A stretch of DNA of 64,000 nucleotides from Squalus acanthias (lineage: Eukaryota). The position numbers were made by a program, and so were the translations under genes. This document shows, one piece after another, positions 11,533 through 63,645 of this stretch. The notes below the pieces were generated by a model. It saw nothing but the letters and a program-made list of their open reading frames with translations. It made no database searches and was not told the DNA's origin. The stretch lies in contig CM059432.1 in assembly GCA_030390025.1 (NCBI GenBank), positions 26,538,001 to 26,602,000 of the forward strand. The letters are read 5' to 3'. Position 1 is the first letter of the stretch; every line of letters starts with the position of its first letter.

Positions 11533-11534
11533 AG

Positions 11535-12650
11535 TGTCAGCCTTGGCTCAGTAGTAGCATTCTTGGGCCTGAATTTGCAGTCGGATGCTTCCCGCGGGCG
11601 GATGCCTCCGACCGGCAAAAAATCTATGAACTTACCTTTTGCCTCAGAATCCATGGAGACTCGCGCTCCTGGGCCTCTATGCGTAGACATGCGTGGAGGC
11701 CCACATATCTCAGGGGCGCAGGCAGTTCGCAAGTGCCCTTGGGATCACGTGGGCCAGCCCAACGAATGACAGAAGGGAATCCCCATTCATGCTTATGGGA
11801 ATTCCGAATGGGAATACCCCAAAAAATACCTCTACACTTTAAATACATTTTTAAAAATCACGTATTTAAAATTAATTAAAATGGCATTTAATTAAATATT
11901 TAAAACAAAAATTTAATTTTTGAAAAATAAATTTACATGTTTTAAAGGGGCTAAAAATAAACTTACCTTATTTCACAGGTTTTTAAATGTATAAATTATT
12001 GAAAAAAATTTATTTTTCTGTTTGTTAAAACTCTTACGCTGGTAAAAGTAGGCCTTACACCTGCTTTTACCAAGTGTAAGAATTTCATAGGCATTCGCTG
12101 GGCAGACGTTGGACAAATACCCAACTCTCCGCCCGCGAATGCCCTTTTCCCGGGGATGCGGAGGATCTGTCAAGAAAATTCTTGACAGATCGCAAGTTCT
12201 GGGTTTTTGCGCATGCGCGGCGCATGCCTAAACACGGAACTTGCGCGGCCCTTACGGGCGTGTGCACACCTCGTACGCACCCGTAGGGGCCGCAAATTAC
12301 GGCCCCCTGAGTCAAAAGTTTGTGCGTTCAAGTCCCACTCCAGAGACTTAAGTGCATAATCCAGGCTGACACTTCAGTGCAGTACTGAGGGGGTGCTGCA
12401 CTGTTGGAGGTGCTGTCTTTCGGATGAGACGTTAAACCAATGCCCCATCTGCCCCCAGTATTTATCCCTCAATCAGCATTATTAAAAAACGACGATATGG
12501 TCATTTATCACAATTTGGCTGCCATGTTTCCTACATTACAACAGTGACTACACTTCAAAAAAAGTACTTCATTGACTGTAAAACACTTTGGAACATCCTG
12601 AGGTCGTGAAAGGCGCTATATAAATGCAAGTTCTTTCTTTTTTTTCTTTC
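11535..12650 (+). mobile_element. SacSINE1/DeuSINE-type SINE split by a MITE
   Basis: Head gtcagccttggctcagtagtagca. It resumes at ~12306 ctgagtc..gttcaagtcccactcc and ends aaggcgctatataaatgcaagttctttc. Confidence 0.85.
11565..12305 (-). mobile_element. ~740-bp Harbinger-type MITE (family M), copy 1
   Basis: TIR gggcctgaatttgc / gcaaattacggccc, GC-rich arms and an AT-rich core. Homologous to 43922-45834 and 50038-50781. Confidence 0.85.
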
Positions 12651-13304
12651 TGTTGGAAAGTAACTGTTAAATGAGGACAAGATCAAGTTTTGCTGAAATG
12701 CTGACCCTGGTGTCTGGAATTACAAGTGACCACTTGGGCAAGATACAGAAGGACTACCAGTGCCTGTGGAAATGGACCCCAGTATAGGTTAATAGCTTGA
12801 GGTGAGAAAATAATTTTCACTTGTAATAACAACATAGTTGACTTAGGTCAGAGCAAATGGATAACATCACAATTATATTTACAGAATGCCAAATACTGTT
12901 TTGCCTTTTGAAGTGACGAATATATTACTTTCTGTAGAATAGTGATTTTATAAATATTGCTAATTTATTTGCTTTCCTTTGCCAAATATTTAAAAAAACA
13001 GTTACTTATTAGGCCTCAGGCATTTTGTATTTCAAAGTGCCGAATCATCATATGATCCAGATCAAACATGACATAATCGAGGAACAGGACTCCCAGTAAA
13101 CAAATAAATAAAATAACAAAATAAAGTCTCACTAACTGGTTAGAAGCAAAATCTGGAAATCATTGCAGGATCTAAAATTCAGGCACCAGTGATGATCGTC
13201 AGGTTGCTGATGACAAGGGCGTCAACGTTGTCGGGTTGCCTGTGGTATCACCTGTCTGCTAGTGTTGCAGTTGACGTCAAAAAGACCCATCTCTCAGCCA
13301 CGTG

Positions 13305-14570
13305 AAAACAACAACATGTATTTTTATAATACCTTTAAAGTAGGAAACATGGCAAGGTGCTTCACAGATTAGAAATGGGCAGCAAGCATTAGTAGAAGAG
13401 TTAGGAGAACAGACCAAAAACATGGTGAAAATGAAGAGCTTTTGAAGGTAGGGAGAGAAGAATCAAGGCAGAGGAGTTTGGGAGGGACTGCCAACATGGC
13501 TGAAGGCTGCGTCACCAATGGTAAAGGGATGGTAGGGGATGCACAAGAGGACAGAGTGAAAGGACTGAATAGTACAAGTTGGGAGATCTGGCTGAAGGAG
13601 GTTGAAGAGTTATGGTGGGACAAGGCAATGGAGGAGATTGTAAATGAGGTTAAGAATGTTCGATTCAATTTTTTTGGGGGGGTCAGGGAGCAATTGAGAT
13701 TGTGAAGATGGATTTGGTGGGGAGGGGTGAGAGCTCGGTGAGTGAGACTCACTATGAGACATGATGCAGGCACCAGAGTTTCGGGTAAGTTAGAGCTTGC
13801 ATAAGGTGGAGTAATAGAGGCTGGAAAGAAGGGTGTTGAAGATGTTGAGTTTGGAGGTAATGAAAGTATGGATAAGGTTTTCAGTGGTGTTGGGAGTGAG
13901 GTAATGGCAAAGGCAGGTGATATAATGGCAAAGGCAGGTGATATTAGAAAGGTAGAAGTAATTTTGGTGACAATGGGTGGTTGAGATATGGGCATTTGCT
14001 GTTTAGTTCAGGATTAAAAAGAAAGAAAGACTTGCATTTATATAGCGCCTTTCACAACCACCGGATGTCTCAAAGCACTTTACAGCCAATGAAGTACTTT
14101 TGAAGTGGAGTCACTGTTGTAAAATGGGAAACCCGGCAGCCAATTTGCGCACAGCAAACTCCCACAAATAGCAATGTGATAATGAACAGATAAACAGGTC
14201 ACTAAGGTTACGGATCACAGCCAGGGTATGAAATTTCTGTCAGGAGCCAAATAACATGGCTTCAGTCTTCCCATTGCTCAACCGGAGGAAGTTCTGTGTC
14301 ATACATGACTTGATGTATGTCAGGCAACACAAAGGTGCTCATGGATTGGTAGAAAAATAGAGCTGGGTATCAGCAGCATACACATGGAAATTGGCCCTTG
14401 AATCTATGGATAATGAAACAGAGGAGCAACATAGCAACAAGGAAAAGGAAGGAAGCAAGGATGGTTCTTTGGGGTACTCTGGAGGTGACAGTGCAGAGCC
14501 GGGAGGAAGAATCCGCTGCGGAAGTAGTGATGGCCACATAGGGATAGGTAGAGAAGCGGAACCCCCGACA
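13305..14570 (-). mobile_element. L2 LINE fragments interrupted by a DeuSINE tail (14018-14195)
   Basis: Degenerate L2 RT (SRVPQ.TIL...FHVYAADTQLY in ORFs 14339/14370). The 3' end matches the L2 tail seen at 25005. Confidence 0.75.
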
Positions 14571-15232: not shown

Positions 15233-16697
15233 TAAAATGCTTCCTCCAGTTTGACTCAATAAAGTGCCTTAGACTCCCCCTCAGAAGAGTGCTGGTGTGC
15301 CATTTCTATTTCTCACACCATCCCTCTTGTGCTTTCTCTTAGTGAGGCCAGTTAGTACTAAATTTTACAATAGTTTTATACTGTGATCTTGCAGCCTCAT
15401 AGGTACTTGATTGAAACTACCCAAAACTTATTTCACATAGATGCCTTACAGCCAACAGAAAGACTAGACTTTCATCCCATGGGCCTGCAATGGATTCAAG
15501 CCCTGGGGTAATTTTATTGACTGCTTATTGTTTCCAACTGCCTCTACTCCATCATCAGTGGTGGCACTTGCAGCTAATATGAGCCTGACCTCTGTAAACA
15601 TCTTCCTAGATACGTCTTCCTTGCTATCTTTTTTCCTGCTTTCAATAGCCTCCTCAAAATCCTTTTCTTCAACTGTGCCCTTCGTTCAACCCCCAAATTT
15701 TCCATCTTTCCTTTTTCCCCTCTTGTTTGCCATCTACGGTTTTTCTTCCATTTTATAAAGTGCTTGAGACCTCACAGTATATGTGAGAAGTGCTATAGAA
15801 ATGTGTGCTGTTGCTACTGGTGCGTAGGTGAAGTATTGTTATTGAGTTCTTTTGTTATAAGAATCATTTTAAATCTCCAGTTGCAAAAAGCTCAATAAAA
15901 GAGTGTAGTACAGCTTTAAGGGCAGGCCTTGCCTACATTAGTTCCTGTGGTAAATTAATCTTTAAAACAGAATCCAATATGATATGAATCTTATATTCTG
16001 TAGTTACACTTGGGATCCAATTCAATTTGGAATTGAATCCAATTTCTGCATTGTTTGCACTCCACCTTATCCCCAAACTGAGACACGGATGGCTCCTTTT
16101 TTTAATTAATGAGGCCTGAAAGTACCCTTCCCTGCCAGTCTGTCTGTGTTTGAGTTTGTCTGTAACAGTGATCGATAAAACCGGAATAATCTCACCTGCT
16201 TCAAGGAAAATTAATAAAACAAATAAATCAGGCAGAAGAATTTTTAAAAAGACCAGGCTTGAATTTCTGAAACTTCTGAGTCCAGGAAGAGTCAAAATTA
16301 AACTTTGCAGATAAAAAGCAAGTGCATGAAATCTGAAAATAGCAGGAACTATACGGCAGGTCTGTCAGGATCTGAAAGGCAAAAAGACTAACATTTTGGT
16401 CAAAGACCTTTCATCAATGTGTTGTCATGAATTGGCTCAAACTGAATCTTCTTTTCAGATGCTGACTGTGGAAAGAAAGAAAGAAAGACTTCCATTTATA
16501 TACGGAGTGATTACTTGCACCGCATTTGTAACTCTGTGCATGCACGCCCGCGTTTGGTACCACACCTGTACCGCATGTGGTACCGCACTCGATCCGGTCG
16601 CGCATGCGCAGTACCCAATGGCACGGCGGCTGCGGCCTGCACCGCCATGCTTTCCTTGGCTCAGTGCAGAAGGTCAGGGGATCAGATGTGGGGGGTA

Positions 16698-18149
16698 GAG
16701 AGGAGAGGCGATCGAAGGGGAGGAGAGAGGAAAGGCGATCGAAGGGGAGGAGAGAGGAGAGGCGATCGAAGGGGAGGGGAGAGGAAAGGCGATCGAAGGG
16801 GAGGAGAGAGGAGAGTGGATCGAAGGGGAGGAGAGAGGAGAGTGGATCGAAGGGGAGGAGAGAGGAGAGGCGATCGAAGGGGAGGAGAGAGGAGAGTGGA
16901 TCGAAGGGGAGGAGGGAGGAGAGTGGATCGAAGGGGAGGAGGGAGGAGAGTGGATCGAAGGGGAGGAGGGAGGAGAGTGGATCGAAGGGGAGGAGAGAGG
17001 AGAGTGGATCGAAGGGGAGGAGAGAGGAGAGTGGATCGAAGGGGAGGAGAGAGGAGAGTGGATCGAAGGGGAGGAGGGAGGAGAGGCGATCGAAGGGGAG
17101 GAGAGAGGAGAGGCGATCGAAGGGGAGGAGAGAGGAGAGGCGATCGAAGGGGAGGGGGGAGGAGAGTGGATCGAAGGGGAGGAGGGAGGAGAGTGGATCG
17201 AAGGGGAGGAGGGAGGAGAGTGGATCGAAGGGGAGGAGAGAGGAGAGGCGATCGAAGGGGAGGAGAGAGGAGAGTGGATCAAAGGGGAGGAGGGAGGAGA
17301 GTGGATCAAAGGGGAGGAGGGAGGAGAGGCGATCGAAGGGGAGGAGAGAGGAGAGTGGATCGAAGGGGAGGAGGGAGGAGAGTGGATCGAAGGGGAGGAG
17401 GGAGGAGAGTGGATCGAAGGGGAGGAGAGTGGATCGAAGGGGAGGAGAGAGGAGAGTGGATCGAAGGGGAGGAGGGAGGAGAGTGGATCGAAGGGGAGGA
17501 GAGTGGATCGAAGGGGAGGAGGGAGGAGAGTGGATCGAAGAGGAGGAGAGAGGAGAGTGGGTCGAAGGGGAGGAGAGAGGAGAGTGGATCGAAGGGGAGG
17601 AGAGTGGAGAGTGGATCGAAGGGGAGGAGAGTGGATCGAAGGGGAGGAGAGTGGATCGAAGGGGAGGAGGGAGGAGAGTGGATCGAAGGGGAGGAGAGAG
17701 GAGAGTGGGTCGAAGGGGAGGAGAGAGGAGAGTGGATCGAAGGGGAGGAGAGTGGAGAGTGGATCGAAGGGGAGGAGAGTGGATCGAAGGGGAGGAGAGT
17801 GGATCGAAGGGGAGGAGGGAGGAGAGTGGATCGAAGGGGAGGAGAGAGGGGAGTGGATCGAAGGGGAGGAGAGTGGAGAGTGGATCGAAGGGGAGGAGAG
17901 TGGATCGAAGGGGAGGAGAGAGGAGAGACGATCGAAGGGGAGGAGGGAGGAGAGTGGGTCGAAGGGGAGGAGAGAGGAGAGTGGATCGAAGGGGAGGAGA
18001 GTGGAGAGTGGATCGAAGGGGAGGAGGGAGGAGAGTGGATCGAAGGGGAGGAGAGAGGAGAGTGGATCGAAGGGGAGGAGAGTGGAGAGTGGATCGAAGG
18101 GGAGGAGAGTGGATCGAAAGGGAGGGGAGAGGAGAGTGGATCGAAGGGG
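16698..18149 (+). repeat. Polypurine minisatellite, 27-bp unit (gaggagagtggatcgaaggggaggaga) with 20-bp variant units
   Basis: Direct tandem array. The 27-bp period explains the 9-aa repetitive ORFs in several frames. Confidence 0.97.
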
Positions 18150-18249
18150 TAGCCTTGGGAAGTGATCGAATTTGGTTCTAATTGCCGATGCCGATGGCAC
18201 AACGAGCGGGCGGGAGTTCCGGGCCGGGCTGGCGGTGGGCAGGGAAAGA

Positions 18250-21489: not shown

Positions 21490-22625
21490 TGGAGAAGTGT
21501 AAAGTATTGTATATAAGAAAGAAAATGAGTAGAACATGTGATGGTGTTAAAATAGCTGAAGATGAAGTTCAAAGAGACCTAGGAGACTTAACAGTTTTGC
21601 ACTCAACGGGGTAGATCTTGATGGGGTAGAGCGGTCGGCAGCCCGCTTTACATCTCTCCGAATATTTTGTTCTAGACTTTAATGGAAATATAAATTGTGA
21701 GAGATGTAAAATGGGCAGCCGACTCACTATCACCCAATTTACACTATCACATAGCCACCAATGTAGAGCAGTATGCAACAAAAGCCAATAAGATGCTGAA
21801 CTATATAGCCAAAACAATAGAACACAAGTCAGAGGAAGTCATGACCAAACTATACTGTACTCTAGTCAGAACACACTTTGAATACCATGACCAATCTGAT
21901 CATTGAGATACCAGAGAGATTTTCCAGTGCTGGAAGCATTGCAGAGAAGAGCCAGGAGACTGTTCCCTAGAGTCAAAGGGCTTAGTTATGAGGATAGAGT
22001 GGAGAAACTTGGGCTTTTTGATGAGATATCTGTGATGCGTACCATTGGTGGCCGTGTCTTCAGCTGCCTAGGCCCCACGCTCTGGAATTCCATCCCTAAG
22101 CCCCTCTTTCTCTCCACCTCCCTCTCCTCCTTTAAAACTCCCCATAAAACTCACCTCTTTGACCAAGCTTTTGGTCACCCGTCCAAATATCTTCTTTTTC
22201 ACAGCGTCTGTTTTTGATCACACTTCAGTGAAGTGCTTTGGGGCATTTTCTATTTTAAAGGCTCAATATAAATGCAAGTTGTCTTTTTTTGTTGTTGAGA
22301 GGTGATCTTTTATGTAGGTCTGTAAGATAGTAAATGGCACAGAAAAAGCCCAGAGTAGGACAAAGGAATGCAGGTTCAAATTAGTAAAAGTCAAATATAG
22401 GATTGATATCAAGAAGTTCTTCTTCATACAATGTAATCAATACATAGAATTGCCTTCCGGATAGAATAGATAGACCCTTGAATTATTTAAGAAACAATTA
22501 GATGTTGCAATGGGCGAGGGAGTGGGGGGCAGGGAAACGGACCGACAGGCTTCCATTTCCCTCTGGATAGATAACCTAAGATGGGCCAAATGGCTTTCCT
22601 CATCTGTAACTATCCTCTGATCTTG
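21490..22625 (+). mobile_element. Old CR1 3' fragment interrupted by a palindromic MITE (~21608-21750) and an L2 3' end (~22040-22290)
   Basis: KANKMLNYI..LYCTLVRTHFEY and LEALQRRA.RL.P. The L2 segment is GGRVFSCLGPTLWNSIP..FKT..KTHLF. Confidence 0.75.
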
Positions 22626-22644
22626 TGAGGTCCCTCACCTTTAG

Positions 22645-28245: not shown

Positions 28246-28751
28246 GGGTCAATTTTGAGTGTCCTTGCCTGGAGTCACAGCCTTACCACCCCGTTAACTC
28301 CAGTGATATGGATGGCTTCATTTTCTGCCGGGTGTCCAAAATGCCTGCCTGACCCAGGTGATAGGCCCCTTTTAATATGGAAATAGGAGTCCCATGATGT
28401 AAATAGGACCCCGATTGCCACTTAAGGTAGCAACTGGGCAGAGTCTGCGCAGTACAGGCTGCGGTCAGTTCGATGGGTGGATGGAAGAGAATAGGCCCTC
28501 TAAAGGTAGTGTTTTATTATTTTTGTTGGCCCGGAGGAGCAGGAGTGCCGCCCCAACACCCCCCTTTAACTTACTTTGCTGGCGGCAGCTCCGGCCTGAT
28601 TTTCAGGCTTCAACCTGGTGAGCTGCGTCTGGACGCCTGTTTTGGCGCCCTGCAGCTCATCTGGTGAATTTAAATGAGGCCGGAGCCTCAAAATCATGGG
28701 GGCCTCTTCGCCACTGGAATGGGTGGCCGACCAAAAGTCGAAATCTATCCT
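28246..28751. mobile_element. GC-rich MITE; same family as 46470-47061 (opposite orientation) and a fragment at ~40865-41060
   Basis: Terminus gggtcaattttgagtgtcc resembles the reverse complement of the 47061 end. Shared internal cctgattt...aatttaaatgaggc. Confidence 0.65.
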
Positions 28752-29076: not shown

Positions 29077-30611
29077 AATGCGTCTGTCCTGGGCAAATTG
29101 AAGAAATGTACTTTATATTAGGGCTCACAGTCTGAGCATTAATCAAAGGAGCAGAAACATTCCTAAAACAACCACCTTACGCTCTTCAAGGATAAGCTGG
29201 TGGTGGTTAATAAAGTACAATGGGCAGGGTTTGGGGACAGATCATGAGCTGTTACTGCAGTGCACTAGAGCCCAGGAGTTCGTGATGTAGAATGGAAAGG
29301 TGAAGAGAGCCGTGCTTATTGGTGAAACTGTCTTGGAAGAGGCCTCTGAAAATCTGCTTATAATCAGATGGCTCTTTCTGCATATGGAGAGAACATGCTT
29401 ACCCCTAACATTGCCATTGAGGATTATTTTGATTAAAACAAACAAATCTGTGACAGATAATTTGCTTTTTACCTGTTAGGTCCAGTAATTCTGTACTGAT
29501 CATAATGAGGTGCGGTCTGCCTGCTCAGGTGTTTGTAAAAGATCTCAAGGAATTATTTTGATGAGAAACAGGGAGACTCCCAGTGTCCTGGCCAATCTTC
29601 CTCCCTCAACAAACACCACCAAACAGATTAGCTGGTCAAATAATCTCATTTGTTGTTTGTGGGACCCTTGCTATGTGCAAATTGGCTGCTGTATTTGCTT
29701 ATATAACAGACCAACAGTGACTACTCTGCAACACTTTTCAGACATCCTGATGATAGGAAAGGTGCAATGTAGATGCAAGTTCTTTCCTTCTTTAATGGTG
29801 ATCAGTGCTTTACGGTTCAGTTTTACTAAAATGCCACAAATTGGTAACCTCTCTCCCTTTCTTTGACTTTCAAATTAATTGTATTCTTCTAGAAAAAGCA
29901 GTGCTCTGATTTATTTAGTACTGACCTCAATAGAATGGTTACTTCGATGAGATGGCTTCCTACTGTACTTTGTTTTGAAAACTTTCTTTCAAAGCACCAC
30001 ACCAGCAGCACTTTGACGGATAGATATTACGGAACACGTGTGAAACTTGTGATTTATTTTGCCTGTCGGCCTAAGTAATTGTTTTTTCCAACTCGTCATT
30101 TGCCCAGATATCTCATGCTAATGCTTTCACTGTGCTTCAGGCTGCTCTGCCTTTAAAAAAAATAAGGGCAATTTAAACCCACTTTGTAAATAATATAATT
30201 TTAAAAGTTGTATACTTACTGGAGCTATAGAATATGGTTGTTATGTTAGGTTTTATAATGACAGAGCCCAGATGATAAATTACATAGAATCACATAGGAT
30301 TTACAACACAGGAACAGTCCATTTGGCCCATGCCGGTGTTCATGCTCCACACGAGCCTCCTATTTATTTCATCTGCCCCTATCAACATATCCTTCTATTC
30401 CTTTCTCCCTCGTGTACTTATTTAGCTTCCTCTTAAGTTGTAGTATACCACAGCATGTAGTACTGTGAGGCCACCTTAGCATTCTCTCCACTAAATAAAC
30501 GTTATTGCCACAAGGTTGCATATCTGCCATCTCCCTCCCAACAGACTATCGGGGTTTGGGCCTATACTCCTCCTTCATTACCATAGTTCCAATCACACAT
30601 AGCTGCTAAGT

Positions 30612-31493: not shown

Positions 31494-31531
31494 TTAGTGG
31501 GGGGGAGGTTTCAAGAGAGCAAAAAATAAAA

Positions 31532-42988: not shown

Positions 42989-43921
42989 TGGGGAGTCTAG
43001 AACCAGGGGTCACAGTCTCAGAATAAGGGGTCGGTCATTTAGGAATGAGATGAGGAGAAATTTCTTCACTCAGAGGGTGGTGAATCTTTGGAATTCTCTA
43101 CCCCAGAGGGCTGTGGAGGTTCAGTCATTGAGTATATTCAAGACAGAGATCGATAGATTTTTGAATATATGGGGATAGTTCAGGAAAGTGGAGATGAAGT
43201 AGAAGATCAGCCATGACCTTATTGAATGGCAGAGCAGGCGCAAAGGGCCAAATGGCCTACTCCTGCTTCTATTTCTTATGTTCTTATAACACCAGGAGCC
43301 CTGAAGATATTTAAGAGCGATCTTTGGGAGATCAGGGTAGAAAATTGTAAAAAAATAAATTTGCACCATGATACCATTATTGGCCTACTCAGCAGAAATT
43401 TAATTGTGTCCAAAATAAATGGTTAATGCTGGTCAACCATTTCTGAAGACAAAAAAAAAACTTTTACGTAAATGGGCTTCATCCTCTTTACAACATCTGA
43501 GACCTGAGACCTGGTCTGCACATTTCAGTACTGCTCACGCTAATGGAATATGATAGGATGAAATGATCCTAACTAGGCTGTAGGGGATGTTCAGTGCCCT
43601 CCTTTAATTGAGTGTTGGTTTTAATATCCTGAAACCTCTGTATTTATTGTGACCTCTGCTGTATTGCCAGTGCCCTAGTGAGGTACAGTGTTCAGTCTAA
43701 CCTGAAAAAAATATTCAAAAGATTTAAGTGAACAGGATAAATTAGTACAGCTTCAAAACTGGCTGTAACGTATTCCATGAACGTCTCAGAATCAATATCA
43801 GCTATCTATTTTTGGTTGGTGTTAGCAACTGTTTAACTCCTTTTCTTCTTTTTCCGTATATCTGAATCTGGGGGAGATTTTCCAACACGCTGGTGGAAAG
43901 GTGATTGGCAGGCTAATGAAC

Positions 43922-45834
43922 TGTGTACGCGGTCGTAAGTGCCCCGCAAGTTCCGGGTTTCCGTGTGCGATGCACATGCGCAAAAACCCAGAACTTGCAA
44001 TCTGTCAAGTTTCAGCTTGACAGCTCACACCCATCCGCAGGAAAAGGAGATTCACTGGCGCAGAGTTGGGCTACTTGCCCAACTACTACCCAGCGAATGC
44101 ACACTAAACCCTTACGCCTGGTAAAAGCAGGCATAAGGCCTTCTTTTACGAGCGTAAGGGTTTAAATAAATATTAAAATATTTTTTTTAATGATTTAACC
44201 ATACAAAGAATGTTGAAATTAGTTTAGGTTATTTTTGGCCCCTTGAAAATTGTTTACATTTATTTTTCAAAAAATTACATTTTTGTTTTAATTTTTTTTT
44301 ATTCATTCATGAGACCTGGGCCAGCATTTATTGCCCATCCCTAATTGCTCTTGAGAAGGTGGTGGTGAGCTGCCTTCTTGAACCGCTGCAGTCCGTGCGG
44401 TGAAGGTACTCCCACAGTGCTGTTAGGGAGGGAGTTCCAGAATTTTGACCCAGCGACGATGAAGGAATGGTGATATACTTCCAAGTCAGGATGGTGTGTA
44501 ACTTGGAGGTGGTGGTGTTCCCATGCGCCTGCTGCCCTTGTCCTTCTAGGTGGTAGAGGTGGCGGGTTTGGGAGGTACTGCTGAAGGAGCCTTGGCGAGT
44601 TGCTGCAGTGCATCTTGTAGATGGTACACACTGCAGCCATGGTACGCCGGTGGTGGAGGGAGTGAATGTTTAAGGTGGTAGATGGGGTGCCAATCTAGCG
44701 AGCTGCTTTGTCCTGGATGGTGTCGAGCTTCTTGAGTGTTGTTGGAGCTGCACTCATCCAGGCAAGTGGAGAGTATACCATCACACTCCTTACTTATGCC
44801 TTGTAGATGGTGGAAAGACTTTGGTGAGTCAGGAGGTGAGATACTCGTCGCAGAATACCTAACCTCTGACCTGCTCTTGTTGCCACAGTATTTACGTGGC
44901 TGGTCCAGTTAAGTTTCTGGTCAATGGTGACCCCCAGGATGTTGATGGTGGGGGATTCGGTGATGGTAATGCTGTTGAATGTCAAGGGGCGGTGGTTAGA
45001 CTCTCACTTGTTGGAGATAGTCATTGTGTGGTGCGAATGTTACCTGCCACTTATCAGCCCAAGCCTGAATGTCGCCAAGGTCTTGTTGCATGCGGGCATG
45101 GACTGCTTAATTATCTGAGGAGTTGCGAATGGCACTGAACACTATGCAGTCATCAGCAAACATCCCCATTTTTAACCTTATGATGGAGGGAAGGTCATTG
45201 ATGAAGCAGCTGAAGATGGTTGGGCCTAGGACACTGCCCTGAGGAACTCCTGCAGCGATATCCTGGGGTTGTGATGATTGACTACCAACCACCACAACCA
45301 TCTTTATTAGTGCTAGGTATGACTCCAGCCAGTGGAGAGTTTTCCCCCCAATTCCCATTGACTTCAGTTTTACTCGCGTTCCTTGTTGCTACACTCGGTC
45401 AAATGTTGCCTTGCTGTCAAGGGCAGTCACTCTCACCTCAGCTCTGGAATTCAGCTCCTTTGTCCATGTTAAATGTTTAATTAAATTGTATTTTAATTAA
45501 TTTTGACCATGTGACGATTTCTTTTTATTTCAGTGCTGTGAAAATGTGTTTTTTAGGGATTCGTATTATGCTTATGAAGATTCCGTACGTAAATGGAATC
45601 TCCATAAGCATAATGGGAATCCCCCTTTGTGATTGGTTGGGCTGGCCCACATGATCCCAGGGACGCTTGCAAACCGCATGTGCCTCTGGGATGCATGGGC
45701 CTTTATGCCGGCGTACGCCTGCAGGCCCAGCAGCACAAGTCTTCGAAGATACAGAGGCACCAAGTAGGTGCGGAGTTTACTTGCGGGTCGGAGGCATTCG
45801 CCCACAGGAAGCCTCCGACCGCAATTTCCAGCCC
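43922..45834 (+). mobile_element. MITE family M copy 2 (left end missing), interrupted by a LINE
   Basis: 43922-44290 and 45470-45834 match the reverse complement of 11565-12305. Right TIR gcaatttccagccc. Confidence 0.8.
44290..45470 (-). mobile_element. Second CR1-group LINE family, 5'-truncated
   Basis: GVPQGSVLGPTIFSCFINDL, FADDC, WNSLP...FKKAAHHHLLKSN in ORFs 45107, 44794 and 44341. Confidence 0.9.
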
Positions 45835-46469
45835 AGTGTCTCAACCAAAAGACGGCACCTCCAACAGTGCAGCACTCACCCAGAACTGCACTGAAGTGTC
45901 AGCCTAGATTATGTGTCACTGGAGTGGGGTTTGACCCCACGACCACTGAGCCAAGGCTGGCATCCATATAATGTTAAACCTACAAGAACATATCTGAACT
46001 TCAGTAGAAGTGAAAATAGCCATCACCCTGTAGCAAAGCTGGTGATGTTAGATCGATGTAGTATCTAACTTTAGGCTATTGTGAATTTAAGGATTTAGGA
46101 AACTTCTTTTGTTTTAGCTCAGGCATGCATTGAATACTTGAACAGCAGAATAATGGCCTGAACTCTCAACGTAATTACAAATGCTAATGTCTTATAGCTC
46201 ATTTGTATTGATGCTGGATTTGTGGCTGGCAGCCCAACTCCACTTTGAACTGAATTTAAAGGTAGGGCTATTGGCTCCTACTTATGTCTCCACAGGTAGC
46301 GGATTGACTAACCCTGGGGTCCCAATACCTGGTACATGCTGCATTAGTTGACTTCACCAGGAGAACAGTAGGAGCACTAAAATTAGGCTCTGTGACCCTG
46401 GAATAGGGGGAAAAGATCAACCATGGTTCCCACTCCTGTCTATTATTCATTGCTGCTGTAGTGTACATG

Positions 46470-47061: not shown

Positions 47062-47792
47062 ATGTGTGCAATGTCAGGTGAGGAAAGAATCAGGCACGGA
47101 TGCGATGCCTTGTCACAGTCAAATAATCTGCAGCCACTCATTATCCAGGTTCACATACGAAGAAAGACTGCTTGAAAAGTCACTGCACCTCAGCACTAGA
47201 TGTCAATCTTCAAGAGAACGAGGAGGAAAACTGGAATGGGGCAAAGCAAACAAAAAACAATCTAAGAAAGATCCTTTGTTTGTCGACTAGAGCAGACATA
47301 ATCACCAGAAATGTATCCCAAATGTACATACGTTAGTCTAATGACTGTATTTTAAATTCAAATCAATAGTAAATGTAGTTGCTAATATTGACAAATCTTC
47401 CGCAATATTCAAATCTGTCTGAAAGGGTCAATTTATCCTCAACTCTTATTTTCTCACAGACCTTTTCCCTGCACCTACTGAACTTTGGTGGTGCAGCAGT
47501 GTCAGCTGTGGCTCAGTTGGTAGCACACTCGCCTCTGACTCAGAAAGCTTGTGGGTTCAAGTCCCACTCCAGGGACTTGAGCACATAAAGCTAGGCTGAC
47601 ACTTCAGTGCAGTGCTGAGGGAGTGCTGCACTGTCAGAGGTGCCGTCTTTTGGATGAGACATTAAACTGAGGCCCTGTCTGCTCTCTCAGGTGGACGTAA
47701 AAGATCCCATGGCACTATTTCGAAGAAGAGCAGGGGAGTTATACCCGGTGTCCTGGCCAACATAATTTATATTTATCCCTCAACCAACATAA

Positions 47793-48556
47793 TGGCCCGA
47801 AAATTAGACCTAATACGCGAGAGTACGCACTGTGTACTCTCGCGTATTAGGTCTCCAATCGCCGGTTTCCTGCATGCACTGCGCATGCGCAGGAAACCGG
47901 CACTTCGTGAATTCAAAAGGGGGCGGTTCCTAAGTGAACCGCGTGCACGCTACAGGCTGTGCGCACGCAGTGCACTTAGTTATTTTTTCAGCTTTGAACG
48001 CGCAGGTAAGTGGTGAACATTTTACACATAAAGAAAGCAGGCGTAGGACCCCCTTTTTACAAGGTAAGTAGTTAATTAAGTGTTATTTTAAAAATTTTTC
48101 AACAGGTTTATCTTTTTTAGAGACTTTAAAGAAAGGTAAGTTTATTTTTATAACTTTTAAAAAGATTTTAAATTTTTCAAAAATTTAATTTTTTGTTTAA
48201 AGTGGTTAATTTATTTAACTATACTTATTGTATTAATGTGATGGCTTTTTTTTAAATTTAATTGAGGTTTAGCTGTTCTTTTGGGGGGGTATAGTATTCA
48301 TAGCTTTGACAGGTCTTCCTGTCAAAACTATGAATGAAAGATGGTGTGCTGCCATTGGCTCTAACTGAATCACGTGATCCCAGAGCTCGCACAAACTAAT
48401 TGCGTCTCTGGGTCACGCAAGCACTGCACGGTTCCAAGAGAGAGAGCCTTTCAGACTAAAGTTCGTGTGGGCCCGGAGCAAAAAGGTAGGCGCGGAGTGC
48501 GATATTGCGGGGATTCCTTACCCCCGCGGGAACCCTCACTGTTTAATTTCTGGGCC
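47793..48556 (+). mobile_element. MITE family M copy 3
   Basis: TIR ggcccgaaaatta / taatttctgggcc, flanks AAT/ATT. Closely similar to 62883-63645. Confidence 0.88.
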
Positions 48557-48569
48557 ATTAAAAACAAGT

Positions 48570-48994
48570 ACAAAAAGAAAATACTGCAGATGCTGGAAAT
48601 CTGAAATAAAAACAGAAAATGCTGGCAATACTCAGCAGGTCAGGCAATGGAAGGCAGCTGTCTTCCATTCTGCCAGCGCAATTTACACTTCATCTAGAGC
48701 CATCCTTTGTTTCTTAACCTGTCCCATTACCATCCCCTTTTGCCTTGAATATCTCTTAATGTCTCTCAATGTCTCTTCATCTCTCCTGCCTTCCAGCCTA
48801 TCACAGGCCTTCCCTTTTGTTTTTTATCCCTCTCTCCCATTTCCCAGCCACTACACTTGCTTAAAATTCTGTTCCATTTCCTGCTTTTTTCCAGTTCTGA
48901 CGAAAGTTCATCAACCTGAAACGTTAACTCTGTTTCTCTCTTCACAGATGCTGCCTGACCTGCTGAGTATTTCCAACATTTTCTGTTTTTATAA
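48570..48994. mobile_element. Penelope-type non-coding insert (family B) with an inverted pLTR piece and a hammerhead at 48892-48932
   Basis: 11-bp TSD taaaaacaagt at 48559-48569 and 48995-49005. CTGACGA-aagttcatcaacct-GAAA-cgtt. Confidence 0.8.
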
Positions 48995-49860
48995 TAAAAA
49001 CAAGTTATCTGGTCATTATCACATTGCTGTTTCTGGCAAATTGGCTGCCGCATTTCCCACATTACAACAGTGACTCCACTTCAAAAGTACTTCATTGGCT
49101 GCAAAGCGCTTTGAGACGTCCGGTGGTCATGAAAGGCGCTATATAAATGCAAGTCTGTCTTTCTTTCTTTCATATTGCATGTATGGCCTTTGCTAAGTAT
49201 ATGCTGTGGCTCTATATGTTAATAAATTCATATGAAATAGGTGGTGTGCTATTGCAGACCTCTGCAGCAACTGACAGCGAGCTGTGGAACATGGATTCAT
49301 TCATTCCCTCCCCAATCCCGCTCCCCCCCTATTATTACCACCATTGAGCTCACACTTAGCCATGTCAGTGCAAGAAGGAGTTGAGAGGATGCCAGGGAAC
49401 AGATATCTGAGGAAAGGACAACCCCTGGAGGAGAGGCTTCAGTGTGCCAACTCATGGTCAGTTCAGTGTGGAATTGATGGAGGCATTAGAGCAGGAAACA
49501 GTCTCAAAAAAAAAAGAAATCTTACCCTCTTATAGAAAATCAGGTGGTCCCCTGAAAGGCTAAGTGAGTAAAGGCACCTCCTGCTGTAGTGCAGAGATGT
49601 ACAGACAAGGAAGGTCCCCTGTCTGTTAGTTGATTTCAGCCAAGGTGAAAGAAGGGGTGCTCCAATTGGCCTCTGTCCCAAGAGTTGGAGAAGGATTCAG
49701 CCAGGGTTCTTGTCCCTCAACACTATCCAGTGACCTCTACTGGAAAGTACCTGTATGTGGACGTAGGGTGAAGACCAGATCAGACGCAGCCGTGATGCCT
49801 TCGGTGATCAAGTAGTCGGCCGACAGTCAAGCTTATATTTCACTGCTGAGGCTTACACAA

Positions 49861-51072
49861 AAGAAAGAAAGAACTTGGATTTATAAAGCACCGTTCACAA
49901 CCTCAGGACGTCCCAAAGTGCTTTACAGTCCATGAAGTACTTTTGAAGTGTAGTCACTGTTGTAATGTAGGGGAAGTGGCAGCAGCCAATTTACACACAG
50001 CAAGCTCCTACAAGCGATGTGATAATGACCAGATACTGGCCCAGATATTCCGATCGCAGGCCTCCCACGGGCTGAGGCCTGCGATCTGGAAAAATCTGCA
50101 CCCTTACCTGAGGGCTCCCGGGACGCGCACAATTCCGCTGCTGGGCCTCTCCAAACTGCAGGTGCGCAGGGCCCACGTATCCCAGAGGCACAGGTAGTTC
50201 GCAGCGTCCCTGGGATCACGTGGGCCATGGGGAGCCAATCACAGAAGGGAATCTCCCTTCATACACTTGACAGGAAGACCTGTCAAATATATGAATGCAG
50301 ATCACCCCCAAAACATAGTAAAACTTTAAATATTTTTTTTTATATCACATTTTTAAAATGACTTGAAATTACAATAAATTAACAATTTTAAACAAAAATT
50401 TAAATTTTTGAGAAAATAATTAAAGATTTTTACAGGGCTAAAAATAAACTTACCTTTTTTAAAGTATTTTTAAATGATAAATCAGTGAAAAAAATTGTTT
50501 TTTTTTACTTTTTTCTACTCTTATCCTGGTAAAAGCAGGCCTTACCAGGCGCAAGAATTGTAAGGGTTTTCTACGGGCGGAGGGTCTCCAAAAAGCGGAA
50601 CTATCTGCCCGCAGAGGCCCTTCTCCAGCGCAGCCAGAGGATCTGTCAAGACCATTCTTGACAGATCGGAAATGCCGGTTTCCAGCGCATGCGCAGTGCA
50701 TGCCTGAAACCGGCATTTCCGATGTCCTTACGGGTGGATACACAGCGCATACACACCCATAGGGATCGGAATATCCGGCCCACTATGTTTTAGTGATGTT
50801 GGTTGAGGGATAAATATTGTCCAAAACCCTGGGGAGAACTCCCCTGCTCTTCTTCAAAATATTGCCATGGGATCTTTTACGTCCACGTGAGAGGGCAGAC
50901 GGGGCCTCAATCTGACGTCTCATCCGAAAGACGGCACCTTCCGACAGTGCAGCATTCCCTCAGTACTGCACTGGCGTGTCAGCGAGATTTTGTGCTCAAG
51001 TCTCTGGAGTGGAACTTGAACCCACAACATTCTGACTCGGAGGCAAGGGGGCTACCAACTGAGCCAAGGCTA
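49861..51072 (-). mobile_element. DeuSINE inside an LF-SINE-like element, split by a MITE
   Basis: Tail at 49861-50037, body and head at 50782-51072. Confidence 0.85.
50038..50781 (-). mobile_element. MITE family M copy 4
   Basis: 18-bp TIR ggcccagatattccgatc / gatcggaatatccggccc, TSD ACT. Confidence 0.88.
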
Positions 51073-52249
51073 GCACCTAACACATGAAGAATTGCCACTC
51101 GGGCGAGTCGCTGGAGCGCAGCTAGTAATTGTGGAACTGTACCTCAACGCGTCTCAGCACCTGCAGGGAAGAACACTGGAAACTAAACGTGCAGAAGATC
51201 GGTTACAGCTTTAAGAGGAGCAGCTATTTGTAGTGCCTGTGTAGTAGCCTGAGCAGCAGCTTCCCCTGTATTAAGTGAGCAACATTAATCATCTCAGTGT
51301 CACATCATAGCAACTACTTGATTAGCCAGGCAAAGAGCAACCATGTTCCATTTATTGATGGAATCTGATTTACCATCTGAATATTTGAAGGTGGGTATTT
51401 CCATGCCCTGCAGCCAAATATAACAAGGTTAACACTCCCCATTTTTTCTCAGAGCCACATTAGCCTCTGAGTGCAGCATTTCATCATTTACTTTATGATT
51501 TAAGCTTTTTTTATTGCTTGTTCTCCATTTACAAATCCCAGATAGCATTGTTTTACAAAAAAATCTATATTGCACGGGGATCCTAATACCAGAACAGGAA
51601 CAAATCATCATGTAAAAAGGTTACAGGCTGTCATCAATATGGAATAATAGACATCTGGGAGTAAGCTATGAGTTTGTAATTCCAATGATGGGTTCAGGTG
51701 ACATCATAAATGCCAAAAATGGTTTACAAATGACTATCTGAATCTCTGAGGTCGGATTATTGTAATTACCTTCAACCCGGTAGCTATTACATAGAAGCTA
51801 CAACACAGAAACAGGCCATTCGGCCCAACCAGTCCAGGTCATCATTTAACCTCCATGTGAGCAAAAAGCACTAATCACATTGACCCACCCTGTTCCCATA
51901 TCCCTTCATCCCCTTTTCCTTCATCCACCTCCAATCTAATCTTGAATGTTGACATAGTTTTTGCCACAGTCACAAACCCTGGAAATTAATTCCACAGCCT
52001 CACAACTCTCTGTGTAAAGCAGTTTCACTTGCTCTCTGTTCTAAATCTCTTATATTTAATCTTGGGCCTCTTAATCTAGACCCCTCAACTGCTGGATACA
52101 GTTTATTTTATGATATGAGCTGCATAGTACTTTTTAAATAAAATTGATAATTTCCCTATTCTTTCAGGTCAGCCACACCAAACATGGTGAAATGAGGGGC
52201 AAGACTTAGATAAAAGGGTAATAAAGTTGACTTGCTCATTACTATTCAA

Positions 52250-52534: not shown

Positions 52535-54367
52535 AACAAGGCTGAAGCATTTGCAACCATCTTCAGCCAGAGGTGCCAAGTGGATGATCCATATCGGCCT
52601 AATCCTGAGGTCCCCACCATCACAGAAGCCAGTCTTCAGCCAATTCGATTCGCTCCACGTGATATCAAGAAACGGCTGAGCGCACTGGTTACAGCAAAGG
52701 CTATGGGCCCTGACAACATCCCGGCTATCGTGCTGAAGACTTGTGCTCCAGAACTAGCCGCGCCTCTAGCCAAGCTGTTCCAGTTCAGCTACAACACTGG
52801 CATCTATCCGACAATGTGGAAAACTGCCCAGGTATGTCCTGTCCACAAAAGGCAGGTCAAGTTCAATCCGGCCAATTACCGCCCCATCAATCAGCAAAGT
52901 GATGGAAGGTGTCATCGACAGTGCTATCAAGCGGCACTTACTCACCAATAACCTGCTCACTGATGCCCAGTTTAGGTTCCGCCAAGACCACTCAGCTCCC
53001 GACCTCATTACAGCTTTGGTCCAAACATGGACAAAGGAGCTGAATTCCAGAGGTGAGGTGAGAGTGACTGCCCTTGACATCAAGGCAGCATTTGACCGAG
53101 TGTGGCATGAAGGAGCCCTAGTAAAACTGAAGTCAATGGGAATCAGGGGGGAAACTCTCCACTGGCTGGAGTCATACCTAGTACAAAGGAAGATGGTTGT
53201 AGTTATTGAAGTTCAATCATCACAGCCCAGGAGTTCCTCAGGGCAGTGCCCTGGGCCCAACCATCTTCAGCTGCTTCATCAATGACCTTCCCTCCAACAT
53301 AAGCTCAGCAATGGGGATGTTCGTTGATGACTGCACAGTGTTCAGCACCATTCATAACTCCTCAGATAATGAAGCAGTCCATGCCTGCATGCAACAAAGG
53401 TCATGATGTGGAGATGCCGGCGTTGGACTGGGGTGGACACCTGACGAAGGAGCGACAGCTCCGAAAGCTTGTAAAATTAAATAAATCTGTTGGACTATAA
53501 CCTGGTGTTGTGCGACTTCTCATTTTTGCATGCAACAAGACCTGGATGACGTTCAGGCTTGGGCTGATAAGTGGCAGGTAACATTTGCGCCACAGAAGTG
53601 CCAGGCAATGACTATCTCCAACAAGTGAGAGTCTAACCACCGCCCATTGACATTCAATGGCATTACCATCGCCGAATCCCCCACCATCAACATCCTGAGG
53701 GTCACCATTGACCAGAAACTTAACTGAACCAGCCACAAAAATACTGTGGCAACAAGAGCAGGTCAGAGGCTAGGTATTCTGCAGCGAATGTCTCACCTCC
53801 TGACTCCCCAAAGCCTTTCTACCATCTACAAGGCACAAGTAAGGAGTGTGATGGAATACTCTCCACTTACCTGGATGAGTGTAGCTCCAACAACACTCAA
53901 GAAGCTCGACAACATCCAGAACAAAGCAGCCCGCTTGATTGGCGCCCCATCCACCACCTTAAACATTCACTCCCTCTACCACCGGCGTACTGTGGCTGCA
54001 GGTTGTACCATCTACAAGATGCACTGCAGCAAATCGCCAAGGCTTCTTCAGCAGCATCTCCCAAACCTGCGACCTCTTCCACCTAGAAGAACAAGGGCAG
54101 CAGGCGCATGGGAACATCACCACCTCCAAGTTCCCCTCCAAGTCACACACCATCCTGACTTAGAAGTATATCGCCAATCCTTCACCGTCGCTGAGTCAAA
54201 ATCCTGGAACTCCCTCCCTAACAGCACTGTGGGAATACCTTCACCACACGGACTGCAGCGGTTCAAGAAGGCAGCTCACCACCACCTTCTCAAGGGCAAT
54301 TAGGGATGGGCAATAAATGCTGGCCTTGCCAGCGACGCCCACATCCCATAAACGAATTAAAAAAAAG
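52535..54367 (+). mobile_element. Second CR1-group LINE family, 5'-truncated, frameshifted, A-rich end
   Basis: KAMGPDNIP..LK.CA.EL, NYRPI, ALDIKAAFDRVWH, GVPQGSALGP, FVDD, ...AAHHHLLKGN. Confidence 0.92.
53398..53526. mobile_element. 129-bp Penelope-type insert (same family as 41811) with a canonical hammerhead core at 53438-53474
   Basis: 12-bp TSD tgcatgcaacaa at 53386-53397 and 53527-53538. CTGACGA-a-ggagc-gaca-gctcc-GAAA-gctt. Confidence 0.85.
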
Positions 54368-56279: not shown

Positions 56280-56339
<60 letters not shown>

Positions 56340-57874: not shown

Positions 57875-58615
57875 AGAGCCTTGAACACAAATCTAGGCTG
57901 ACACTTCAGTGCAGTACTGAGGGGGTTCTACACTGTCAGACGTGCCATCTTTCAGATGAGACATTAAACCGAGGCCTTGTCTGTCCTCTCGGGTGGACGT
58001 AAAAGATCCCATGGGACTATTTCGTAGAAGGTGTTCTCTCTGGTGTCCTGGCCAATATTTATCCCTCAACCAACACCACTAAAACAGGGCAGGATATCTG
58101 GCAAGAGCAGTTGTCAAAACGTGGCTCTCTTAAAGCTGGGCTACACGTTGCTCAAGGAAAAGTTTTCTACATTGAAAGTGACCATGATTGTAAGGATGGT
58201 AAGGAGCAAGATGTAGCTTTGGAGGTTGTGCCACATGAGATCCTTCAAAGTAGTCTGGTCCTTTTTGGAACTCAGGTAAAATCAAATGTGCACAGCATCT
58301 GAGGTAGTGTCAGCTGTGGCTCAGTTGATAGCACTCTCGTCTCTGAGTCACAGAAGGTTGTGGGTTCAAGTCCTGCTCAGAGACTTAACCTTAGTGTCCT
58401 GGCCAATATTTAGCCCTCAAACAACATCACTTAGAAATCAGATTATCTGGTTATTATCACATTACTGTTTGTAGGAACTTGCTGTGTGCAAATTGACTGC
58501 TTGTTTCCTACATTAAAACAGTGACTACACTTCAAAAGTACTTCATTGGCTGTAAAGTGCTTTGGGATGTCCTAAGGTCATGACAGGTGCTATATAAATG
58601 TAAGTTTTTTTCTTT
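57875..58615 (+). mobile_element. Two partial DeuSINE copies (57875-58085 and 58308-58615)
   Basis: Match to the DeuSINE head, body and tail seen at 20525-20962. Confidence 0.8.
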
Positions 58616-61915: not shown

Positions 61916-62882
61916 ACCTGTTTTTGTTTCAGACTTCCAGCATCTACAGTATTTTGCTTTTTATTAATTCAACTGTGCTACAAACACATGTAAATAACTT
62001 TCTAACTGTAATTTTCAGACATGAATTGGCACTTTGTGGAGCTGTGTAAATTGTGATTTTTAACGTACAATGCAATGCAACAACTTGGCTCAGATGCAAT
62101 AAGATTTACTGGAGCGTGTTAAGGCAGTGGTTCAACCAAAGAAAAAATGAAGTTTGTTGATTTTCATGGATATGATATAATCAAGAGATGGGTTTTATCA
62201 TATTTCACAACTTTTTCTAAAATAGTTTACCCACAGTGCTGCATCTTATTGAATTTCCAGAGATATTGCTGATGCAACTAGTCTGAATCTGATACATCAT
62301 GGGAGAGGATAGGATTGGATAGGCTATAAGCATTAAGGAAGGACCATCCCAAAAATGTCAACAGCAGAAGGTAGTAGGAAGTCCCTGACATATTATTCAT
62401 AAATTCAGGAGTAGAAGATCACGAAAGGTTTGGTTATCTTCCATTTGGCCAGGTTCCTGCAAAGATTTTATGACTCATGTGATCTTCCAATATCCTTGAG
62501 ATTCCAACAATAAAAATGAGCTCTTTCCCGTTCTAGATCTGTACGTGGCTCACTAGGGATCTTGTTAGCCGTCTGCATCTCTCGCAGATGTGTACTCAAG
62601 TAATGAGTCATCTCTCTTAATCTGAGGATCCTTGAGGCGTACTTTTATCCCTTTCCTTTGGGATCAAGACCCATACCACAAATGCTCCACTTGGTAGACA
62701 AGTGCTGGCAATTGATTGCATTGAAACTGGAGAATATCAAACAATGACCCTTATAATCCCATCATTCAGGGTGGATTGATGATAGGCTAGTGCCTGCTAG
62801 TCGAGATAGCACTATGGAATATTTTACATCCACCTGAGAGAGCAGACAAGGCCTCGGTTTAACATCTCATCCGAAAGACGAT

Positions 62883-63645
62883 GGCCCAGAAATTCGGCCG
62901 AATACGGGAGAGTACGCACTGTGTACTCACCCGTATTCGGTCCCGAAGTGCTGGTTTTCTGCATGCACTGCGCATGCGCGGGAAACCGGCACTTCCGATA
63001 TTGCGAAGGGGGCGGTTCCTAAGTGAACCGCGTGCGCACTACAGGCTGTGCGCACGCAGCACACTTAGGTTTTTTTTCAGGTTTGAACGCGAGGGTAAGT
63101 ATGGAAGATTTTACACATGAAAAAAGGAGGCGTAAGACCCCCTTTTAACAAGGTAAGTAGTTAATTAAGTATTATTTTAATTTTTTTTCAACAGGTTTAT
63201 CTTTTTTAGAGACTTTAAAGAAAGGTAAGTTTATTTTTATAACTTTTAAAAAGAATTTAAATTTTTGCAAGAATTAAAATTTTTGTTTAAAGTGGTTAAT
63301 TTATTTAACTATAGTTATTTTATTAATGTGATGGTTTTTTTGAAATTTAATTGAGGTTTAGCTGTTCTTTTGGGGGCAATTTGTATTCATAGTTTTGACA
63401 GTTCTCCTGTCAAAACTATGAATGAAAGATGGTGTGCTGCCATTGGCTCTCCATGACCCACGTGATCCCAAAGGTCGCATCGAACTAACTGCGCCTCTGG
63501 GACACGCACACACTGCCCGCCGGCACCAGGGAGAGGCCCGGGACCCGAAGTTCGTGTGGGCCCAAAATAGAACGGCAGGCGCGGTAGGTAAGATCACGCG
63601 CGATCCTTACCCCCGCGGCAAGCCGGAGAGGCCAATTTCTGGGCT
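62883..63645 (+). mobile_element. MITE family M copy 5, inside a minus-strand DeuSINE (62810-63787)
   Basis: TIR ggcccagaaatt / aatttctgggct, TSD GAT at 62880-62882 and 63646-63648. Confidence 0.88.

What the first reader, a model, noticed from the sequence alone, without database searches (positions are those of the whole stretch)
11565..63645. All five copies of MITE family M sit in or abut DeuSINEs: possible SINE-targeting DNA transposon
Seen: copies at 11565, 47793, 50038 and 62883 each split a SacSINE-type SINE, and the intact end of the fifth (45834) abuts one. The sites fall in three zones of the SINE: the tRNA head, near atccgaaagacggcacc (two copies), and near caacatcactaaaacagat (two copies). 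These SINEs occupy only a small share of the window. Established: Harbinger elements can have extended target-sequence preference. Inference: this family may target the SINE as a safe harbour, or its chromatin.
Basis: partly seen in the sequence, partly recalled or inferred. Interest (0 to 1): 0.7.

Follow-up and report, generated by a model that had tools for sequence, protein, structure and literature searches.

The report
Harbinger MITEs nested in shark SINEs
Four of five copies of a small cut-and-paste transposon in this stretch of shark-type DNA really did land inside copies of one short retroposon, but each at a different spot that fits a landing motif already known for such transposons, so true homing to the retroposon is possible but not shown.

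Summary
The window has exactly five copies of a ~750-bp non-coding Harbinger-type MITE (63-84% identical; 12-bp TIRs; 3-bp duplications, perfect in 2 of 4). Four split a tRNA-headed SacSINE1-like SINE. The fifth is cut in two by a LINE and touches a SINE with one end only. SINEs make up 7-11% of the available DNA, and 0 of 9 other Harbinger-type elements lie in one.

The five sites are five different SINE positions (35, 146, 165, 284, 296) in both orientations, so Dada-like site targeting is out and the 'three zones' are not significant (p = 0.16). The sites fit the palindromic Harbinger landing motif (A at -4 in 7 of 9 ends, pyrimidine at -1 in 9 of 9). That motif enriches the SINE only 1.1- to 1.6-fold, so an excess remains (P for at least 4 of 5 = 2e-4 to 4e-3). 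A scan over hundreds of windows can produce that by selection.

The decisive genome-wide flank count could not be run: no genome is held, and the read-laying was swamped by SINE copies. Most likely this is ordinary Harbinger target choice in a lucky window (0.55). Real SINE or Pol III-chromatin homing stays open (0.2).

The parts
11565..12305 (+). MITE copy M1 (741 bp; its strand defines +); flanking triplets ctt / cct (2 of 3 alike); same orientation as its host SINE
11531..12647 (+). Host SINE of M1 (11531-11564 and 12306-12647), split at consensus position ~35, between the A and B boxes; 6 nt are missing at the site against the consensus
43870..44303 (-). Second half of MITE copy M5, ending in a diverged TIR at 43870; its outer flank is not SINE
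44319..45470 (-). LINE fragment inserted into M5 (88-95% like the LINE at 53024-54325)
45469..45834 (-). First half of MITE copy M5; intact TIR at 45834
45835..45962 (-). SINE 5' part (head to consensus position ~165) that stops at the M5 TIR; its 3' part is missing
47497..49169 (+). Host SINE of M2 (47497-47793, 48557-48570, 48996-49169), split at consensus position ~284
47794..48556 (-). MITE copy M2 (763 bp); flanking triplets aat / att; opposite to its host SINE; 84% identical to M4
48571..48995 (.). A second, unrelated repeat with inverted ends, inserted in the same SINE 14 bp from M2
49856..51080 (-). Host SINE of M3 (49856-50037 and 50782-51080), full length, split at consensus position ~296
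50038..50781 (+). MITE copy M3 (744 bp); perfect duplication act / act; opposite to its host SINE
62793..63792 (-). Host SINE of M4 (62793-62882 and 63646-63792; positions 4-235 only), split at consensus position ~146
62883..63645 (-). MITE copy M4 (763 bp); perfect duplication gat / gat; same orientation as its host SINE

Best explanation
Family M is a non-autonomous PIF/Harbinger-type (PHIS) MITE. It is moved in trans by a transposase plus a Myb/SANT protein of an autonomous relative (inferred; no partner identified). It cuts and pastes, duplicates 3 bp, and chooses sites by a short, loose palindromic motif around the duplication: A four bases out and a pyrimidine next to it, on each side (shown here). 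The SINE is very abundant and carries such half-sites slightly more often than other DNA (shown, 1.1- to 1.7-fold), so M lands in it somewhat more than its share. The rest of the 4-or-5-of-5 pattern is the tail of a small sample in a window picked because it showed the pattern (inferred). No device that seeks the SINE is needed.
For: Shown: 12-bp TIRs and 3-bp flanking triplets. Two neighbours with the same TIR class encode Myb_DNA-bind_5 above the Pfam cut-off. M ends have A at -4 in 7 of 9 (p = 0.003) and Y at -1 in 9 of 9 (p = 0.002); the 15 ends of nine other Harbinger-type elements, none in a SINE, have 13 of 15 and 11 of 15. A matrix built only from those non-SINE ends ranks the four M sites at the 90th, 87th, 98.5th and 99.9th percentile of the window. 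One M4 half-site matches the Harbinger3_DR half-site 6 of 6 (consensus from PMC3016246). The five sites differ and both orientations occur. There is no MITE-SINE homology (best p = 0.03 of 5 tests, in an A-rich tract), and the top repeated MITE words are absent from the SINE consensus. Expected windows with at least 4 of 5 inside by chance: 0.05-1.2 per 185 windows and 0.3-6.7 per 1000, for a SINE share of 0.087-0.2; this genome has at least 185 windows with notes.
Against: The motif explains little of the excess: weighted SINE share is 0.10-0.14 against 0.086 raw, and a Harbinger3_DR-style matrix gives no enrichment (0.3- to 1.1-fold). If the fifth copy counts, P(5 of 5) is 4e-6 to 2e-4, or only 0.001-0.06 expected per 185 windows. 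Other Harbinger-type elements with the same motif are in SINEs 0 of 9 times (Fisher p = 0.005 for 4 of 5, 0.0005 for 5 of 5; the comparison is post hoc and those elements were delimited by eye). Five of the nine head-bearing SINE copies in the window carry or touch an M. Two of the sites rank only 70th and 257th of 465 on the SINE consensus.
Confidence: 0.55

Rival explanations
1. Region-level homing: the transposase-Myb complex of family M is tethered to a host factor or chromatin state on tRNA-headed SINEs (TFIIIC/TFIIIB or Pol III-opened chromatin) and then picks the nearest site that fits the short Harbinger motif. This gives scattered sites within about 250 bp of the B box.
For: 4 of 5 inside and the fifth abutting, against a share of 8-18%. 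The motif accounts for only 1.1- to 1.6-fold. Other Harbinger-type elements 0 of 9. All five hosts keep the tRNA head, and all sites lie in the first 300 of ~470 bases. Scattered, non-identical sites are what protein-tethered targeting gives in TRE5-A and Tf1 (PMC3706591 section 13).
Against: n = 5 in one selected window. 'All in the first 300 bases' has P = 0.10. Hosts (82-93% to the window consensus) overlap non-hosts (82-91%) in divergence (the consensus includes the hosts). There is no fixed distance to the B box (-25, +86, +105, +224, +236). One site splits the promoter between the A and B boxes. I saw no DNA-transposon precedent in the listings.
Confidence: 0.2
2. Family-specific sequence or DNA-shape preference: M has a sharper or longer target than 9 half-sites can define (for example A-C/G-A-pyrimidine half-sites), and the SINE consensus spells several good sites. 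This gives a real three- to five-fold genome-wide enrichment at a few fixed SINE positions, with most copies still elsewhere.
For: 6 of 9 M half-sites end in A-C/G-A-pyrimidine. Two sites rank 4th and 14th of 465 on the SINE consensus under the independent matrix. The top 0.1% of sites under the M-derived matrix are 21-23% SINE (circular). Unchecked notes report such motif-made hot spots in CR1 tails, a Penelope repeat and satellites of this genome (e1-7940590, e1-7805368, e1-7940088; leads only).
Against: None of 13 simple motif variants raised the SINE share above 0.15, and in non-host SINEs the fold was at most 1.7. No SINE position was hit twice.
Confidence: 0.2
3. Strict site-specific targeting (Dada-like), or one SINE+MITE composite copied as a unit.
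For: Only the nesting itself.
Against: Five different positions, both orientations, 3-bp rather than 6-7-bp duplications, copies 63-84% identical, and different hosts (Dada features from PMC8869645 and PMC3706591).
Confidence: 0.03

Closest known systems
Harbinger3_DR / Harbinger3N_DR of zebrafish (PMC3016246 and PMC2836001, passages read; the primary paper PMC2290759 is not held)
   Same: Short TIRs, 3-bp duplication, palindromic preference extending about 6 bp on each side. M half-sites match its half-site at 29 of 54 positions against 16 expected.
   Different: M triplets are act, gat, aat/att and ctt/cct, not CWG. The motif is looser. M is non-coding and no partner is identified. No SINE bias is mentioned in the passages read.
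Tourist-like MITEs such as mPing, and the PHIS groups of Han et al. 2015 (PMC2836001, PMC4482050, passages read)
   Same: Non-coding, TIRs starting with G or A, 3-bp duplication. The triplets end in T, and three (act, aat/att, agt) fit the ANT of the Pangu group.
   Different: About 750 bp, longer than the 100-500 bp quoted for MITEs. gat and ctt/cct do not fit ANT. The group cannot be fixed without a transposase.
Dada DNA transposons targeting tRNA, snRNA and 5S genes (PMC3706591 passages and section 13; PMC8869645 passages)
   Same: A DNA transposon found inside multicopy Pol III-type sequences.
   Different: Dada inserts at fixed nucleotides with 6-7-bp duplications; M uses five different positions with 3-bp duplications.
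Protein-tethered retrotransposons TRE5-A and Tf1 (PMC3706591 section 13); Ty elements near Pol III genes (PMC5911963, search listing only)
   Same: What the rival reading would work like: scattered sites near a class of promoter.
   Different: These are retrotransposons, with shown host-protein contacts; nothing of the kind is shown for M.
SacSINE1 Deu-SINE of sharks (PMC5499810, passages and section 7), as the host repeat
   Same: About 470 bp (copies up to 463 bp in the paper), A and B boxes in the head, tail shared with an L2-like 3' end in the window.
   Different: No reference consensus could be aligned here, so the name and the Deu domain rest on architecture and recall.

Membership tests
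PIF/Harbinger (PHIS) non-autonomous element | Short terminal inverted repeats beginning with G or A | tested here: met
   12-bp imperfect TIRs on both ends of four copies; one intact and one diverged end on the fifth
PIF/Harbinger (PHIS) non-autonomous element | 3-bp target-site duplication | tested here: met
   Perfect in 2 of 4 (act, gat), 2 of 3 bases in the other two; not present for the fifth
PIF/Harbinger (PHIS) non-autonomous element | Extended palindromic target preference | tested here: met
   A at -4 in 7 of 9, Y at -1 in 9 of 9; sites at the 87th-99.9th percentile under a matrix from other elements
PIF/Harbinger (PHIS) non-autonomous element | No coding capacity | tested here: met
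   Four ORFs of 108-116 aa that overlap four copies gave no Pfam match; the other overlapping ORFs were not scanned
PIF/Harbinger (PHIS) non-autonomous element | Autonomous partner with DDE transposase and Myb/SANT gene sharing its ends | tested here: inconclusive
   Two neighbours with the same TIR class encode Myb_DNA-bind_5, but no DDE domain was found in the frames scanned and no link to M beyond the TIR
PHIS subgroup (PIF/Harbinger, Pangu, NuwaI, NuwaII) | Group-specific duplication (ANT, CWG, C|TNA|G) and transposase clade | tested here: inconclusive
   Three sites fit ANT, two do not (definitions); no transposase to place
Dada-type target-specific DNA transposon | Insertion at a fixed nucleotide of the target | tested here: not met
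   Positions 35, 146, 165, 284, 296
Dada-type target-specific DNA transposon | 6-7-bp duplication | tested here: not met
   3 bp (Dada value)
SINE-targeting or Pol III-tethered element | Genome-wide enrichment in the target above sequence expectation | not testable with these tools
   No genome held; no match in three contig collections; read-laying uninformative
SINE-targeting or Pol III-tethered element | Contact between element protein and a host Pol III factor | not testable with these tools
   No partner protein of M identified
SacSINE1-type Deu-SINE (host) | tRNA-type head with A and B boxes | tested here: met
   Boxes at consensus positions 17 and 60 (recognised by recalled box consensus); ARAGORN and Rfam give no hit
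SacSINE1-type Deu-SINE (host) | 3' tail shared with an L2 LINE | tested here: met
   Consensus 395-478 aligns with the end of a repeat at 22042-22295; that this repeat is an L2 end is recalled
SacSINE1-type Deu-SINE (host) | Deu domain, by alignment to the reference | not testable with these tools
   Supplement of PMC5499810 not readable; resemblance recalled only

The most novel reading that the evidence does not exclude
A very abundant shark Harbinger MITE family is steered to tRNA-headed SINEs as a class, by tethering to Pol III factors or their chromatin, and uses the ordinary short motif only for the final choice of base. This would be a cut-and-paste transposon that treats a SINE as its safe harbour, the DNA-transposon counterpart of tRNA-gene-tethered retrotransposons.
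Probability: 0.2. Interest if true: 0.75.

Novelty: new member of a known kind. Interest (0 to 1): 0.33.

Why it matters
If the best explanation holds, this adds one more shark Harbinger MITE family with a known kind of target motif, and a caution about small nested counts in repeat-rich genomes. If the rival holds, it would be a DNA transposon directed to a repeat class by host Pol III machinery rather than by a fixed sequence. In the papers I read, that mode is described only for retrotransposons, and Dada is the site-specific DNA case. It would matter for transposon ecology and for safe-harbour delivery tools. One repeat-masking run on the assembly decides between them.

Tried and rejected
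Genome-wide test: no genome is held. A degenerate MITE motif and a SINE motif found nothing in the metagenome, viral and prokaryote contig collections, as expected for vertebrate DNA.

Contigs of 4 of the 24 runs listed (X1, X19, X22, X13) were laid on 47440-48572 at 80% likeness. The tables were filled by SINE copies: 15 of 1313 joints and 24 of 2548 loose ends were shown, none at a MITE end. As a rough control, a 9-bp insertion private to this SINE copy showed as only about 460 loose ends in X1, against a SINE depth some 300,000 times that of the flank. Junction detection is thus far too weak, and the missing MITE-SINE joints say nothing either way. The summed depth over the MITE in X1 (3e4 to 2e6, against 16 in the flank) suggests a very abundant family, but the tool warns that this is no copy number. 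Bins 47934-48009 had no cover in the other three runs, which may mean a lineage-restricted subfamily but is not proof. 43 X1 contigs ran over the ends of the stretch; this cannot be read.

Shared-motif tethering (the Myb protein binding a word present in both MITE and SINE) was rejected: no significant local alignment, and the most enriched repeated MITE words are absent from the SINE consensus. A recalled Myb-binding motif could not be found in print, and the primary paper is not held, so it is not used.

'Three zones' was rejected (p = 0.16). Preference for younger SINEs was not seen. A sixth copy was not found. A possible TIR remnant at 58088 in another SINE is ambiguous and was not counted. 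Two short SINE-profile hits (22222, 25012) were dropped from the SINE share as LINE tails. The element at 28246-28750 was left out of the control half-sites because its ends are ambiguous. Rfam and ARAGORN gave nothing. Look-ups of earlier notes by the sequence of M4 and M3 gave nothing.
Full report
Setting. The window is repeat-rich vertebrate DNA of shark type. That label is my inference from its repeats, and it agrees with unchecked notes on the same genome. No whole genome is held for it.

The MITE. Self-comparison and a profile search give exactly five copies: M1 11565-12305, M2 47794-48556, M3 50038-50781, M4 62883-63645, and M5 in two halves, 45469-45834 and 43870-44303, separated by a LINE fragment. 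They align end to end over about 750 bp at 63-84% identity; M2 and M4 form one subfamily. The ends are imperfect 12-bp inverted repeats. The flanking triplets are act/act, gat/gat, aat/att and ctt/cct; M5 has no matching pair. Four overlapping ORFs have no Pfam match. Other elements in the window have ends of the same class, and two of them (35630-37319, 38005-39693) encode a Myb/SANT domain above Pfam's cut-off, the second gene of PIF/Harbinger elements (PMC2836001 and PMC4482050, passages). M is therefore a non-autonomous Harbinger-type element; its partner and PHIS subgroup are not fixed.

The SINE. A profile from ten window copies gives a ~470-bp element with A and B boxes at 17 and 60 and a tail shared with an L2-like 3' end. 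This fits SacSINE1 as described in PMC5499810 (passages and section 7). The supplement with the alignments could not be read, so the name and the Deu domain are by architecture and recall. It covers 6.9% of the window, 8.4% of non-Harbinger DNA and 11.2% once young LINEs and the satellite are removed.

The nesting. M1-M4 each have SINE on both sides, continuous in consensus coordinates apart from 6 nt missing at M1, so the MITE came second. M5 touches a SINE that ends at position 165, but its far flank is not the rest of that SINE. A later deletion would explain this, but it is inferred. The positions are 35, 284, 296, 146 and 165; three copies run with the SINE and two against it. Two pairs within 20 bp occur by chance with P = 0.16, and all five within the first 300 bp with P = 0.10. 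Site-specific targeting of the Dada kind, with fixed nucleotides and 6-7-bp duplications (PMC8869645 passages, PMC3706591 passages and section 13), is not met.

Target motif. The nine M half-sites have A at -4 in 7 and a pyrimidine at -1 in 9; fifteen half-sites of nine other Harbinger-type elements give 13 and 11. This confirms here the motif of an earlier unchecked note (e1-7807215) and resembles the palindromic 15-bp target of Harbinger3_DR (PMC3016246, passage; the primary paper is not held). A matrix made only from the non-SINE ends puts the four full M sites at the 87th to 99.9th percentile, and two of them are the 4th and 14th best of 465 sites on the SINE consensus; the other three rank 70, 89 and 257. 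So M obeys ordinary Harbinger site choice. But the motif favours the SINE only weakly: the weighted share is 0.10-0.14 against 0.086, and at most 0.15 for 13 motif variants. This result goes against my preferred reading and leaves an excess.

Size of the excess. P(at least 4 of 5 inside) runs from 2e-4 at a share of 0.084 to 4e-3 at 0.18, and P(5 of 5) from 4e-6 to 2e-4. None of the nine control elements is in a SINE (Fisher p = 0.005 or 0.0005); they were delimited by eye and one sits 21 bp from a SINE piece. The window was chosen because of the pattern. Treating every window as holding five copies, chance gives 0.05-1.2 windows with at least 4 of 5 per 185 windows and 0.001-0.06 with 5 of 5. 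185 is only the number of windows with notes in this genome, the number read is unknown to me, and other family-host pairs multiply the chances. The four-of-five pattern is therefore within reach of selection; the five-of-five pattern is less so, but it rests on the unproven fifth case. A strong genome-wide bias in so common a family should have been noted in other windows. None appeared in the rows shown, which is weak evidence because only 8 of 20, 37 and 133 fitting notes were shown in the three genome look-ups.

Genome-wide attempt. Contig collections held no match. Contigs of four runs laid on the SINE plus M2 were swamped by SINE copies and could not show MITE junctions.

Mechanism. Shown: cut-and-paste anatomy, 3-bp duplication, short palindromic site choice, insertion after the SINE. 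Inferred: mobilisation by a transposase-Myb pair, a mild SINE bias from motif content, and chance for the remainder (0.55). Rivals: a sharper family-specific motif making real SINE hot spots (0.2), and tethering to Pol III factors or chromatin on SINEs, as TRE5-A and Tf1 do for their targets (0.2). No homology and no shared enriched word links MITE and SINE.

Print. Searches listed no paper on a DNA transposon that homes to SINEs in sharks; I saw listings only for most hits, and subscription journals and Repbase are not covered. Passages of PMC8151067 and PMC10468316 added nothing on this point.

Verdict. Real nesting, known kind of element, targeting unproven and cheaply testable. Interest 0.33; novel case 0.2 likely, 0.75 if true.

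Noticed in passing
window 41799-42961: Near-perfect inverted repeat: two 580-bp arms, 98% complementary, 3 nt apart, in LINE-like sequence. Unexplained.
   Followed up: no
window 30603-34483: CR1-type LINE with two open frames: 296 aa with a GDSL esterase domain and 1004 aa with endonuclease and reverse transcriptase; looks young.
   Followed up: partly
window 35630-37319 and 38005-39693: Harbinger remnants with Myb/SANT frames and perfect 3-bp duplications (ata, tta). Both sit in LINE sequence; the first is in the short-repeat tail of a CR1-like element, 21 bp after a SINE piece.
   Followed up: partly
SINE consensus 284-310; window 48571, 5424, 35609, 58103: The AT-rich stretch that holds M2 and M3 also takes an unrelated insertion (48571-48995) and is where three other SINE copies stop, so it may be a general insertion or breakage zone.
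   Followed up: partly
all five M copies: The word CTTAC/GTAAG occurs 3-6 times per copy (4.4-fold over the window), like 5' splice sites, and a GCGCA-rich palindrome is conserved near one end.
   Followed up: partly
window 16555-18150: Purine-rich tandem array with a 27-bp period.
   Followed up: no
window 9840-10000: Short run of degenerate telomere-like repeats.
   Followed up: no
window 58088-58098: An 11-bp stretch like the M3 end begins at SINE position ~295, where that SINE copy soon stops; it may be a remnant of a lost copy or chance.
   Followed up: partly
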